DNA from: Coleofasciculus chthonoplastes F2-STO-03
GTDB taxonomy: Bacteria > Cyanobacteriota > Cyanobacteriia > Cyanobacteriales > Coleofasciculaceae
Direction of reading: 5' to 3'
DNA length: 42,046 bases
NCBI GenBank assembly: GCA_040222015.1
Contig: JAVJWO010000139.1
Location: 1 to 42,046 of the forward strand
Part shown: in pieces, positions 24,930 to 27,222 of the stretch
Position numbering within the stretch: the first letter of the stretch is position 1
Layout of the letters: each line of letters opens with the position of its first letter
Position numbers and translations under genes: made by a program
Notes under the pieces: generated by a model
The model's input: only the letters and a program-made list of their open reading frames with translations
Told to the model about the DNA's origin: nothing
Databases searched by the model: none

Positions 24930-26047
24930 ATGTTACGTGATCTCACTATACAAAATTATCGCTGCTTCAATAACTTTCATATCGACGGGTTAGCACGAGT
25001 TAATTTACTCGTGGGCATGAATAATTGTGGCAAAACAACATTACTGGAAGCTGTGTATCTACCACATTACTGGAAGCTGTGTATCTATTCGTTAATCAAG
25101 GTAATCCTCAGTGTTTAGGATATTTACTCTATAACCGAGGTGAACTGGTTGAACGCTCCATTTTTAGCCTGCCCGGTGAACCCCAGCGCCCTTTGTCTTA
25201 CTATCAAATTAGCCATCTATTTTACGGTTATGTACCGAGCTTAAATTCAACAATCCGTTTTAGTTCAACCCAAGATAATAATTTACAAGTTGAAATCATT
25301 AGACAAAAAGCAGAGACACCTAAAATTATAACTCCCTTTGAATTAATTGTTCGATTAAACTCAAAAGAGGTAACATATAATGTTCCTGTATATTCGGATG
25401 ATTTAATCGAATATAGATTGCTGACATTTCCTGGATTTCCAAATCAATATTCTGGTTCATCGAAGCTAGAAGAAAAATCCATAAATAATAGTTGGTTGAT
25501 TCCAACTAATAATTTAAGCAATCAAAATATATCTGATATGTGGAATGATATTACTCTCACACCAAAAGAAAATCAGGTAATAAACGCCTTAAAAATTTTA
25601 GATGAAAATATAGAGCGAATTAGTTTTACAAACAAGCCCAACTTCAACAGTGGCATTTTGTGTAAGCGCAGTAAAGAAGAATATCCAATTCCTCTCAGTA
25701 GCATGGGCGAAGGAATGCGACGCATTTTAAACTTAGCCATGGCAGCCGTGACAGTTGAGAATGGTGTCTTGCTGATAGACGAAATTGAAACAGGTCTATA
25801 TTATGAAGCCCAAACTGATATGTGGAGATTTATACTAGAAGTAGCCAATGAATTAAACATACAAGTTTTTGCAACAACTCATAGTTGGGACTGCATTTGT
25901 GCGTTTCAAGAAGCTTTGGATGAATTCGATGATCCATCAGTGGGCAAATTATTTCGATTGAGTCGTAAGGGTGAAGATATACGTCCGGTTGAATACGATT
26001 CTGAAAAATTGGGTGTTGCTGTGCGTCAAAATATTGAGGTTCGCTGA
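24930..26047 (+). pseudogene. AAA_15/AAA_21 ABC-type ATPase, frameshifted
   Basis: GMNNCGKT Walker A, MGEGMRR signature, LLIDEIETG, ATTHS; a 26-nt tandem duplication at 25038-25087 breaks the frame. Confidence 0.88.
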
Positions 26048-26293
26048 TGCCAAAAAAACCAAAACCTCATCAGCTATTGGTAGAAGGAAAAAATGATCGC
26101 CATGTGATCTGGGCTTTGTGTAATCAATATCAGTTGCCAGAAACATTTTCTGTAGAAGTAGCGGAAGAAAAAGGAACAGAGGGGATAGAGGCACTTTTAG
26201 CTGGATTACCAGCTAGAATATTAGGAATTGTCGTTGATACAGATCAAAATTTACTGGCACGATGGCAAGCGGTACAAAATCGACTCATGGAGA

Positions 26294-26572
26294 GTCAACG
26301 ACCCGCCGCTAACCCCTTAGGGATAGCGGCGGCTCTTCAAAGCCCTACGTTGACCAGTCTCCCTCAATCAAAGGCTTTTTGAGGGTAAGCGATATCTCGG
26401 TCACAACACCTACGAATGCGTGTCTAGCCAACTTAAGCCAGTTTGTAGCTCTGTTGTTCAGCATTAACTAGCAAGTACGGGTTTACGAGCCGTGTGCTGA
26501 GCGTAAAAAGCCAAGATATCAAAGACGAGGCACACTTAACCGGAGAAATCCGAGTTCGGCGGGAGTAATCCC
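26294..26572 (+). ncRNA. HEARO/omegaRNA scaffold
   Basis: GTCAACG..CGTTGACCAG 5' stem, ACACC..TGC..CCAG..GCTCTG, GACGAGG..ACTTAACC, and 3' GNRA hairpins CGGA-GAAA-TCCG and GGGA-GTAA-TCCC. Confidence 0.8.
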
Positions 26573-26793
26573 AACCCCTATGCGTACAGGTTAAAAGCAC
26601 GAGCTTGTAACTGCCCAAGCGAAAGGCAAATGCAATATGTCGAACGGTTGCAATTTAGTCCAAGGCGGTAGGAGTGATGCCGTTTTTTCTTTTTTTAATT
26701 TGATTCGCTGTCGCTCAACTTATTAGTTAGCGAACCCTTCCCCGGACGCTGATCTTTGGTGGTACAGGCGTCCGCCCCCTTGCGGCATTTTAG
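26294..26793 (+). mobile_element. Non-autonomous IS200/IS605 (IscB-type) element
   Basis: Exact 500-bp insert with no clear target duplication (only a GT ambiguity); subterminal hairpins at 26303-26332 and 26743-26774; no tnpA or iscB ORF. Confidence 0.8.
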
Positions 26794-27222
26794 GTGGATA
26801 TCAGGCGATTCCGACAGTACCTCCCCCAGATGGCTGGGTGTATACACAACCAGATAAACCCCAAATAGGCGTTTGGTTAATGCCTGATAATCAACTTCCT
26901 GGAATGTTGGAAGATTTTGTTGCCCATCTAATCCCTTCTGATGATAGTTTGCGTCCAAAAGCCGAGGCGATTGTGCAAGAGATTGAACAGTTGAAATTGA
27001 ATCGTTATACGCCAATTCATCATCCCAAAGCTTTAATTCATACGTGGTTAGCTTGGCAAGAAAAGCCAGGAATGCCAATGGGACAAGCCATTACCGCAAA
27101 GGTGCTGAGTTATAATGCTGAAATCGCGACAAAGTTTTTTGAATGGTTAAAACGTCTATTTGAGTTAGCGAATGCTTCAGCATAAAGGTGGCAAATCAAG
27201 GGTTAATGACGAATGACAAATG

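What the first reader, a model, noticed from the sequence alone, without database searches (positions are those of the whole stretch)
26294..26793. Stand-alone omegaRNA (HEARO) mini-element with a readable guide and TAM
Seen: an exact 500-bp insertion (ATG GAG A|insert|GT GGA TAT) whose removal restores the DUF3226 frame. It begins with an omegaRNA-like scaffold; the ATG where iscB should start (26580) stops after 4 codons; a terminal hairpin is retained. Knowledge: IscB omegaRNAs take their guide from the 5' flank and need a 3' TAM, and TnpA can act in trans. Inference: the guide is ...GTACAAAATCGACTCATGGAGA and the TAM begins GTGG. A trans-supplied IscB could therefore cut intact copies of this defence gene, which matters in a polyploid cyanobacterium.
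Basis: partly seen in the sequence, partly recalled or inferred. Interest (0 to 1): 0.72.

Follow-up and report, generated by a model that had tools for sequence, protein, structure and literature searches.

The report
Nuclease-less IscB guide-RNA mini-transposon
A 500-base mobile element that carries the guide-RNA scaffold of an IscB (Cas9-ancestor) nuclease but no nuclease gene has split a candidate phage-defence gene of a cyanobacterium; it is a clean new example of an already described kind of element, and it would likely be served by a nuclease and a transposase encoded elsewhere in the genome.

Summary
Window 26294-26793 is an exact 500-bp insertion with no target duplication (junction ambiguous by 2 nt). 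Five congeners show the untouched site ...ATGGAGA|GTGGATAT. Its first 247 nt match Rfam HEARO, the IscB omegaRNA (103.3 bits, cut-off 83).

It is a protein-less derivative of an ISC (IscB-family IS200/IS605) transposon, and a mosaic:
- an omegaRNA 89-90% identical to that of an intact IscB element in the same genome;
- a structured ~100-nt module found so far only in IscB-less copies;
- a transposon end homologous to the ends of full-length elements.

That end type is followed by GTGG in 13 of 15 independent insertions and ATGG in 2. This is the published ISC target site and fits the published NTGG/NTGA TAMs.

The genome holds 26 HEARO copies. Five have a full iscB and 16 have none. It also holds Y1 transposase genes.

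Cutting of the empty site in trans, and mobilisation in trans, are inferred and not shown. The "ATG where iscB should start" is part of the conserved module and not an iscB remnant. The neighbouring ATPase gene is also broken. The element is a new member of a known kind. The 3' module is the only possibly new feature.

The parts
24930..26047 (+). AAA ATPase gene of the two-gene candidate defence system (PDC-M38A / AbiLi-like). It is broken by a 26-nt tandem duplication (25038-25063 and 25064-25089).
   Evidence: PADLOC PDC-M38A at 221 bits and Pfam AAA_15/AAA_21. The duplication is absent from congener G008. Removing one copy restores one frame.
26047..26293 (+). Left piece of the interrupted DUF3226 / PDC-M38B gene.
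   Evidence: Pfam DUF3226 profile 2-81 and PADLOC PDC-M38B. It lacks 21 nt (7 codons) that are present in G005.
26278..26293 (+). Predicted guide: the 16 nt of flank next to the scaffold.
   Evidence: The position follows from the established rule that the IscB guide is the flank 5' of the scaffold (Meers 2023 preprint). The 16-mer is unique in the genome. It is identical, and followed by GTGG, in the empty sites of G007 and G003. The guide length is recalled and not tested.
26294..26540 (+). omegaRNA (HEARO) scaffold, which is also the 5' end of the element.
   Evidence: RF02033 at 103.3 bits, full model. 89% identical over 248 nt to G000:C193:38381-38631; 90% in a global alignment, with the next best copy at 62%.
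26541..26572 (+). Two small GNRA-loop hairpins (26541-26552 with loop GAAA; 26561-26572 with loop GTAA) that continue the omegaRNA beyond the Rfam model.
   Evidence: In hairpin 1 all 4 pairs show compensatory changes. The same hairpin is present in full-length elements just before the iscB start. Meers 2023 notes that RF02033 lacks downstream structures. Hairpin 2 was read by eye only.
26577..26672 (+). Conserved structured 3' module: a closing stem (26577-26585 with 26664-26672) and two hairpins (26603-26620 and 26625-26641). It contains the ATG at 26580.
   Evidence: 12 copies in G000 at 68-89% identity. 91.6% of cells are paired against 28-40% in slid controls, and 9 pairs show compensatory change. 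G-U pairs make the structure specific to the + strand. It has no Rfam match and is never next to an iscB.
26662..26696 (+). Terminator-like hairpin followed by a run of T; a possible 3' end of the transcript.
   Evidence: Consensus scan only. The other copies of the module do not have it.
26702..26793 (+). The transposon end on the side where iscB would have ended (the left end in TnpA terms), with the subterminal hairpin at 26744-26773.
   Evidence: 84% identical to the end of a full-length IscB element in G002, directly after the IscB stop codon. The last 26 nt are 92% identical to the end of the full-length element G000:C31. DNA fold.
26794..26797 (+). GTGG: the target-site motif and predicted TAM.
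   Evidence: It is present in the empty sites, so it comes from the target. The same end type is followed by GTGG in 13 of 15 insertions and by ATGG in 2. GT|GG is a published ISC target (PMC4810608). IsrB TAMs of NTGG, NTGA and NTG are published (PMC9581776).
26794..27185 (+). Right piece of the DUF3226 / PDC-M38B gene.
   Evidence: Pfam DUF3226 profile 85-208 at 165 bits; PADLOC PDC-M38B at 159 bits.

Best explanation
Window 26294-26793 is a 500-bp protein-less derivative of an ISC (IscB-family IS200/IS605) transposon, inserted without duplication in front of a GTGG motif inside a DUF3226 (PDC-M38B) gene; it would likely be moved by a Y1 transposase and served by an IscB nuclease that are both encoded elsewhere in the genome.

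Shown:
- the exact insertion and the empty site;
- a complete HEARO/omegaRNA scaffold that starts at the element's first base;
- an end homologous to the ends of full-length IscB elements;
- the recurrent GTGG flank;
- an intact IscB whose own omegaRNA is 89-90% identical;
- Y1 transposase genes in the genome;
- sense orientation within the host gene.

Inferred:
- Read-through transcription from the ATPase/DUF3226 operon makes an RNA whose 5' part (...AATCGACTCATGGAGA) is the guide.
- The RNA's body is the scaffold plus two GNRA hairpins and a ~100-nt structured module.
- IscB from contig C193 (or its 81%-identical paralogue on C31) loads this RNA.
- The complex cuts any copy of the site that lacks the element (guide match followed by GTGG).
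- The occupied site is spared because GTCA stands where GTGG should be.
- Repair from an occupied sister chromosome would then put the element back. [quoted passage not shown]
For: Identity:
- HEARO at 103.3 bits against a cut-off of 83.
- frame restored, and the empty site seen in 5 of 8 congeners.
- end homology, with GTGG in 13 of 15 and ATGG in 2 of 15 independent insertions.
- PMC4810608 (passages read) reports ISC insertion at GT|GG, GT|GA or N|ATGA without duplication, and mobilisation in trans by Y1 transposases.

Parts available in trans:
- 26 HEARO copies over the cut-off.
- 5 of them have a full iscB, 3 have remnants, 16 have none, and 2 lie at contig ends.
- the C193 IscB is 427 aa, with RRXRR at 246 bits, an HNH domain, and matches to solved IscB structures.
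- the window's omegaRNA is 90% identical to C193's, and the next best copy is 62%.
- 17 Y1_Tnp matches.

How such elements arise:
- In G004 an internal-deletion derivative sits at the locus where G001, G002 and G007 carry the full-length element.

Mechanism from the literature (Meers 2023 preprint, passages read):
- The IscB TAM equals the motif next to the native element.
- The omegaRNA needs transcription from outside the element.
- PATEs that carry omegaRNAs would need a nuclease in trans.
- IscB and its omegaRNA work from separate promoters.
- IsrB TAMs are NTGG, NTGA or NTG (PMC9581776).

RNA:
- A 212-nt contig in a microbial-mat metatranscriptome is 100% identical to 26431-26642. It bridges scaffold and module, while the gene flanks have no cover in the RNA runs.
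Against: - No experiment or read data shows cleavage, excision or an empty-site allele in this organism. No public run holds half of the stretch and no joint was seen.
- The RNA contigs come from relatives. They may include DNA, and they say nothing about RNA ends.
- The window's scaffold has the lowest HEARO score of its subgroup: 103 bits against 114.5 for C193.
- TAM fit is not certain. The C193 element itself is flanked by TTGG and its four closest relatives in the genus by ATGG.
- The element with the same end type and a GTGG flank (C31) has an omegaRNA that is at most 57% alike.
- This exact composite is single-copy in the genome, and its end type has only one full-length partner there.
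- The ATPase partner gene is frameshifted and the DUF3226 piece has a 21-nt deletion. The locus is therefore decaying, which also fits an old, idle insertion.
- A crude orientation test on the other IscB-less copies gave 4 same, 3 opposite and 9 undecided.
Confidence: 0.6

Rival explanations
1. Inert relic. The element is a dead deletion derivative that landed once. Any RNA it makes is a by-product of the broken operon, and no nuclease or transposase in this cell uses it.
For: - This composite is single-copy.
- The surrounding system is decaying, with a 26-nt duplication in the ATPase gene and a 21-nt deletion in the DUF3226 piece.
- It has the lowest HEARO score of its subgroup.
- There is a TAM mismatch between the omegaRNA-cognate C193 element (TTGG) and this site (GTGG).
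- No empty-site or excision evidence was found.
Against: - The scaffold still matches the full model above the cut-off and is 89-90% identical to that of an intact element.
- The end hairpin and the terminal 26 nt are conserved.
- The insertion is absent from 5 of 8 congeners, so it is not ancient.
- A near-identical scaffold-module junction occurs in an RNA library.
Confidence: 0.3
2. An RNA with a life of its own. The scaffold plus the conserved 3' module works without IscB cleavage, for example as a regulatory or decoy RNA. The module, and not guide function, would explain why IscB-less copies are kept.
For: - The module is structured, specific to the + strand, and conserved at 68-89% between copies whose scaffolds are not alignable by blastn.
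- It is found only in copies without iscB: 0 of 15 public loci and none of the G000 copies have one adjacent.
- The largest IscB-less family in this genome has only iscB remnants as partners.
Against: - No known family matches the module, and nothing was found that points to a target or partner.
- Conservation may simply reflect recent amplification and recombination among elements.
- The scaffolds of IscB-less copies keep the highest HEARO scores, up to 153 bits, which fits guide function.
Confidence: 0.08
3. Assembly or alignment artefact: the 500 bp were joined to this gene by misassembly of a repeat.
For: The element belongs to a multi-copy family, and the genome is a 219-contig draft.
Against: - The boundaries fall to the base on the Rfam model start and on a homologous transposon end. 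The motif next to that end is the same as at 13 of 15 independent insertions.
- The flanks are colinear with five congeners.
- This composite is unique in the genome, so no second copy exists to be confused with it.
Confidence: 0.02

Closest known systems
ISC transposons with GT|GG target sites (Kapitonov, Makarova and Koonin 2016, PMC4810608; passages read)
   Same: - 5' end GTCA...
- Subterminal hairpins.
- Insertion at GTGG without duplication.
- No transposase of its own, with mobilisation in trans by a Y1 TnpA predicted.
- The paper's examples include mat-forming cyanobacteria.
   Different: The described ISC elements are 1.3-1.7 kb and encode IscB. This one is 500 bp with no protein gene, and a structured non-coding module stands where iscB would be. 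The paper places the cut inside GT|GG. Here the data fit N|GTGG equally well because of the 2-nt ambiguity.
PATE-like protein-less relatives of the IscB element ISGst5 in Geobacillus stearothermophilus (Meers et al. 2023 preprint, 10.1101/2023.03.14.532601; passages and legends read)
   Same: The ends resemble those of a nuclease-bearing element and there is no coding gene. The authors state that such elements often encode omegaRNAs that would need the nuclease in trans.
   Different: - Different phylum, end family and TAM (TTCAT there, GTGG here).
- This element has an exact empty site in relatives.
- It is a three-part mosaic.
- It has an extra conserved 3' RNA module.
- I could not see their Extended Data figure, only its legend.
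HEARO RNA, Rfam RF02033 (the IscB omegaRNA)
   Same: Full-length match above the gathering score. The 5' end coincides with the element boundary, and the guide position lies in the upstream flank.
   Different: No adjacent HNH/IscB ORF. The transcript probably runs on through two hairpins and a ~100-nt module that the Rfam model does not cover.
IsrB/IscB nucleases with NTGG or NTGA TAMs (Hirano et al. 2022, PMC9581776; passages read)
   Same: The TAM is a 4-nt motif 3' of the target with the form N-T-G-(G/A). This matches the flanks seen here: GTGG, ATGG and TTGG for this end family, and ATGA for the other family in this genome.
   Different: Those TAMs were measured for IsrB proteins of other organisms. 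No TAM has been measured for the IscBs of this genome.

Membership tests
HEARO / IscB omegaRNA (RF02033) | Covariance-model score at or above the curated gathering score, over the whole model | tested here: met
   103.3 bits against 83, model positions 1-211 of 211, E = 2.4e-20 for the window.
HEARO / IscB omegaRNA (RF02033) | Scaffold starts at the transposon boundary, so that the 5' flank supplies the guide | tested here: met
   The model starts at 26294, which is the first inserted base as defined by the empty sites, within 2 nt.
HEARO / IscB omegaRNA (RF02033) | An IscB (RRXRR + HNH) ORF directly downstream | tested here: not met
   No RRXRR match on this contig. The only ORFs inside the element are 61 aa or shorter and have no Pfam match. 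This defines the RNA-plus-ORF unit and not the RNA family.
HEARO / IscB omegaRNA (RF02033) | Binds IscB and guides DNA cleavage | not testable with these tools
   Would need biochemistry or an interference assay.
Non-autonomous ISC / IS200-IS605 element (PATE-like) | Insertion without target-site duplication at a specific 4-nt motif | tested here: met
   Empty site ...GGAGA|GTGGAT in 5 congeners. GTGG follows 13 of 15 and ATGG follows 2 of 15 homologous ends.
Non-autonomous ISC / IS200-IS605 element (PATE-like) | Both ends homologous to the ends of nuclease-bearing elements, with subterminal hairpins | tested here: met
   The 5' 248 nt are 89% identical to G000:C193. The 3' 92 nt are 84% identical to G002:C46, and the last 26 nt are 92% identical to G000:C31. 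Hairpins fold: z = -6.1 at the 5' end, but only -1.7 at the 3' end.
Non-autonomous ISC / IS200-IS605 element (PATE-like) | No protein-coding gene inside | tested here: met
   tblastn with the C193 IscB finds nothing next to the module in 15 related loci.
Non-autonomous ISC / IS200-IS605 element (PATE-like) | Excision and integration by a Y1 (HUH) transposase supplied in trans | not testable with these tools
   17 Y1_Tnp matches exist in the genome, 16 of them over the cut-off. Which one, if any, recognises these ends is unknown.
PDC-M38 candidate defence system (host locus) | Adjacent PDC-M38A ATPase and PDC-M38B (DUF3226) genes | tested here: met
   PADLOC gives 221 bits for the A protein, and 66.6 and 159 bits for the two B pieces. 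The intact congener B protein scores 252 bits.
PDC-M38 candidate defence system (host locus) | Both genes intact | tested here: not met
   B is split by the element. A is frameshifted by a 26-nt tandem duplication.

The most novel reading that the evidence does not exclude
The IscB-less copies are not debris. They form a distinct, amplified lineage of stand-alone guide RNAs that has swapped the nuclease gene for a dedicated ~100-nt structured 3' RNA module. In this genome 16 of 26 scaffolds lack iscB while only 5 keep a full one. The genome would thus run a one-nuclease-many-guides network, a natural half-way house between OMEGA elements and CRISPR arrays. The module would be the adaptation that lets an omegaRNA be made, stabilised or loaded without its nuclease encoded in cis. 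Here one such guide is aimed at the intact allele of a defence gene.
Probability: 0.2. Interest if true: 0.7.

Novelty: new member of a known kind. Interest (0 to 1): 0.38.

Why it matters
This is a well-resolved natural case of a guide-RNA-only OMEGA element. The insertion is defined to within 2 bases, the empty site is visible in sister species, and the guide and TAM can be read. A candidate nuclease lies in the same genome. That makes trans-loading of omegaRNAs, and homing of a nuclease-less element, directly testable with a handful of constructs.

It also shows a candidate defence gene knocked out by such an element. If the guide is active, it would oppose restoration of the intact allele.

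The conserved 3' module, seen so far only in nuclease-less copies, may deserve its own study. In itself, however, the element is of a kind already described in print and already met several times in this scan.

Tried and rejected
- Tail against the C193 element's end. Short-word blastn found nothing, so the tail first looked unique. Relatives later showed it to be a genuine transposon end.
- Empty site for the C193 element. Not found in the 9 genus genomes. Its TTGG flank therefore rests on end alignment only.
- Module as an iscB remnant. All three frames hit stops by eye, and tblastn with the C193 IscB found nothing in 15 module-bearing loci. Rejected.
- Module as a hammerhead-like three-way junction. 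By eye there is a GAAA between the two hairpins but no CUGANGA core, and no Rfam match at E up to 1. Rejected.
- Module as a structure for the transposase. Its G-U pairs make it specific to the + strand, whereas the transposase's active strand would be the other one (the strand convention is from Meers 2023). Judged unlikely.
- Orientation bias of the other HEARO copies relative to upstream open frames. Among IscB-less copies: 4 same, 3 opposite, 9 undecided. The 90-aa threshold missed even the window's own 82-aa piece. Inconclusive.
- Public reads. 20 runs were listed and none holds half of the sampled words. In the 4 runs laid there was no joint across the element and no contig across either junction with 31 or more letters on both sides. 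Empty-site alleles and RNA ends could therefore not be assessed. One RNA contig starts 5 nt upstream of the scaffold, which I do not count as a guide.
- Sister copies of this exact composite. None was found in G000, and none above about 76% identity over the scaffold-module junction in the 40 relatives.
- Papers not held: Weinberg 2009 and Altae-Tran 2021. What I say of them is recalled.
- No structure prediction, complex prediction or large protein search was run, because none would bear on the open questions.

Full report
OBSERVATION. The finding is real and sits at the stated coordinates.
- Rfam's HEARO model (RF02033, the omegaRNA of IscB) matches window 26294-26540 on the + strand. The score is 103.3 bits (gathering score 83) over the whole model, and it is the only Rfam match in the 42-kb window.
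- Removing 26294-26793 joins 26047-26293 and 26794-27185 into a single 213-codon frame. Pfam DUF3226 covers profile positions 2-81 on the left and 85-208 on the right.
- A search of 40 relatives found the two flanks contiguous in 5 of 8 genomes of the same genus (G002, G003, G005, G007, G008). They read ...CGACTCATGGAGA|GTGGATATCAG. The other three congeners gave only partial matches.
- There is no target duplication.
- The junction is ambiguous by two bases, because GT begins both the insert and the right flank.

ANATOMY (+ strand).
- 26294-26540: omegaRNA scaffold.
- 26541-26552 and 26561-26572: two small hairpins with GNRA loops.
- 26577-26672: a structured module, made of a closing stem with two internal hairpins.
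- 26662-26696: a terminator-like hairpin and T run (consensus scan only).
- 26702-26793: a transposon end with a subterminal hairpin, GGACGC...GCGTCC.
- 26794-26797: GTGG in the flank.

No ORF inside the element has a family match. In full-length elements iscB begins 5-31 nt after the Rfam model end, right after the first GNRA hairpin, whose trailing GGAG looks like the ribosome-binding site.

A MOSAIC DELETION DERIVATIVE. The three segments have three different nearest relatives.
- Bases 1-248 are 89% identical to G000:C193:38381-38631, the omegaRNA of a full-length element. In a global alignment the figure is 90%, with the next best copy at 62%.
- Bases 279-382 are 68-89% identical to a segment in 11 other places in the genome. 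Eight of these lie about 35-40 nt after a HEARO of a different subtype (5' GTCAGGAACCCC), which blastn cannot align to the window's scaffold.
- The last 92 nt match nothing else in the genome at blastn E 1e-3. They are 84% identical to the end of a full-length IscB element in congener G002, directly after the IscB stop (...ADGYEYAF*). They are more weakly similar to the end of the full-length element on G000:C31, where the last 26 nt are 92% identical.

Deletion derivatives of every size occur.
- In G004 a roughly 410-nt element keeps the scaffold, the last codons of iscB and the end. It sits at the locus where G001, G002 and G007 carry the full-length element.
- G004:C8 and G000:C150 hold elements of about 65-100 nt, made of the scaffold's first hairpin joined to the end.

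TARGET MOTIF AND TAM.
- I searched 301 genomes of the order with the last 100 nt of the element, and 21 had a match.
- I examined 31 loci. Of these, 19 had a match reaching the terminus and 12 did not; the 12 were dropped.
- After merging rows that are the same or orthologous places (L109 with L111, L087 with L103, L091 with L093), 15 independent insertions remain.
- I re-registered five rows by one base on the conserved ...TT(W)AG. The flank then begins GTGG in 13 and ATGG in 2, and diverges after that.
- Because the empty sites contain GTGG, the motif belongs to the target and not to the element.
- The four genus elements whose iscB is closest to C193's end ...GCATTTAAG|ATGG, and C193 itself ends ...ACATTAAG|TTGG. 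The family motif is therefore N-T-G-G.
- A second end family in this genome ends ...AATTTTCG|ATGA.

Both motifs are in print.
- ISC transposons insert at GT|GG, GT|GA or N|ATGA without duplication (PMC4810608, passages read).
- Measured IsrB TAMs are NTGA, NTG and NTGG (PMC9581776, passages read).
- For a Geobacillus IscB, the TAM equals the motif beside the native element (Meers 2023 preprint, passages read).
- At the occupied site GTCA stands where GTGG would be, a two-base difference. This is the kind of difference Meers et al. report as protecting the occupied site.

PARTS AVAILABLE IN TRANS.
- The genome is a cyanobacterium: it has 10 phycobilisome-protein matches, and the control rang only in Synechococcus.
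- It has 35 HEARO matches at E up to 0.001, 26 of them over the cut-off.
- It has 18 RRXRR (IscB/IsrB) matches, 11 of them in open frames of 351 aa or more.
- Of the 26 scaffolds, 5 are followed by a full iscB, 3 by remnants and 16 by nothing; 2 lie at contig ends.
- The C193 IscB is an open 427-aa ORF with RRXRR (246 bits) and HNH domains. It matches solved IscB structures such as TbaIscB and OgeuIscB.
- It is 81% identical to the C31 IscB.
- There are 17 Y1 transposase matches, 16 over the cut-off.
- The 16-nt flank next to the scaffold is unique in the genome. It is identical, with GTGG following, in the empty sites of G007 and G003. G005 and G002 have one mismatch, and G008 has several.

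THE 3' MODULE.
- I aligned 12 copies from this genome.
- For my proposed structure of hairpin 1, closing stem and two hairpins, 91.6% of cells form standard pairs, against 28-40% when the partners are slid by 1-3 columns.
- Nine of 21 pairs show changes on both sides, and the covariation score is 0.416 against 0.05-0.13 for the slid versions.
- Several pairs are consistently G-U. The structure therefore exists on the + strand, the strand of the omegaRNA, and not on the strand the transposase would use.
- An exact-pattern scan of public genomes found 15 loci. Twelve of them are titled Coleofasciculus sp. MAGs. One (Acidimicrobiales) is a chance match, and two break off after the core.
- Ten of the 15 have a HEARO over the cut-off directly upstream. 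None of the 15 has an IscB-like tblastn hit within 2.2 kb.
- The module matches no Rfam family.
- Its role is unknown. My best guess is a 3' structural cap of a stand-alone omegaRNA.

RNA EVIDENCE (weak).
- No public run holds half of the stretch.
- In three metatranscriptome runs from one microbial-mat study, contigs cover 26289-26657 only. None covers the gene flanks (26100-26285 and 26658-27000).
- One 212-nt contig is identical to 26431-26642 and so bridges scaffold and module.
- Other contigs, about 96% identical, run on into an iscB start like that of C31. A full-length relative with a closer scaffold therefore exists in nature.
- These are contigs from relatives. DNA carry-over cannot be excluded, and contig ends break at repeat borders, so they show neither transcription of this locus nor RNA ends.

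HOST LOCUS.
- The interrupted gene and the ATPase gene before it are the two genes of PADLOC's candidate system PDC-M38. The ATPase also resembles AbiLi.
- The ATPase gene carries a 26-nt tandem duplication just after the Walker A motif. It is absent from G008 and shifts the frame.
- The DUF3226 piece lacks 21 nt that are present in G005.
- The system is therefore dead twice over in this genome.

MECHANISM AND RIVALS.
- Most likely (0.6): a non-autonomous ISC element whose RNA is made by read-through from the host operon. It lies in the sense orientation, as IscB omegaRNAs require. The RNA is loaded by the C193 or C31 IscB in trans and is aimed at the empty site plus GTGG. A Y1 transposase in trans does the moving.
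- Identity and architecture are shown. Transcription, loading, cutting and mobility are inferred.
- Main rival (0.3): the same element, but idle.
- Minor rivals: an IscB-independent role of the RNA module (0.08), and misassembly (0.02).

KNOWN OR NEW.
- Protein-less, omegaRNA-bearing relatives of IscB elements that would need the nuclease in trans are mentioned in print (Meers 2023 preprint).
- The GTGG target and trans-mobilisation of ISC elements were described in 2016.
- HEARO copies without the ORF, and trans-acting omegaRNAs, are also things I recall from Weinberg 2009 and Altae-Tran 2021, which I could not open.
- Earlier notes of this scan report three IscB-less HEARO mini-transposons in other genomes and an IsrB element with an ATGA TAM in this genome.
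- This is therefore a new member of a known kind.
- My four literature searches did not turn up the conserved 3' module restricted to nuclease-less copies. Those searches were not aimed at it, and I could not see supplements or figures.

Noticed in passing
window 25038-25089: A 26-nt tandem duplication sits in the PDC-M38A/AbiLi-like ATPase gene just after the Walker A motif. It shifts the frame and is absent from congener G008.
   Followed up: yes
window 26200-26230 (against L064): The DUF3226 left piece lacks 21 nt (DEPKLQT) that are present in the G005 orthologue. The deletion is in frame.
   Followed up: partly
window 8982; G000 genome-wide: A 28-nt perfect palindrome (GTAGAGACGCGCCATGGCGCGTCTCTAC) occurs 119 times in the genome (up to 2 mismatches), once in this window. 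It has inserted into several HEARO elements (contigs C48, C49, C95, C120).
   Followed up: partly
L073 (G004:C104) against L074-L076 (G001, G007, G002): The same locus carries a full-length IscB element in three congeners and, in a fourth, a roughly 410-nt internal-deletion derivative (scaffold, last iscB codons and end). This catches a mini-element in the making.
   Followed up: partly
G000 contigs C216, C215, C49, C165, C45, C33, C18, C48, C120 and others: The largest IscB-less HEARO family (5' GTCAGGAACCCC, ends ...TTTTCG|ATGA) has only iscB remnants (C5, C95) as partners in this assembly. Yet these copies have the highest HEARO scores, up to 153 bits.
   Followed up: partly
G000:C193 and G000:C31: Two IscB proteins are 81% identical, but their omegaRNA scaffolds are at most about 57% alike in sequence. 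Scaffolds, nuclease genes and ends appear to be reshuffled among elements.
   Followed up: partly
L077 (G004:C8) and G000:C150 near 9055: These are tiny PATE-like elements of about 65-100 nt, made only of the first hairpin of the scaffold joined to the terminal hairpin of the GTGG-type end.
   Followed up: no
G000:C178:70322-70550 and C177:6622-6850: Two further IscB-less HEARO copies share a different downstream sequence, with no module. This may be another non-autonomous lineage.
   Followed up: no
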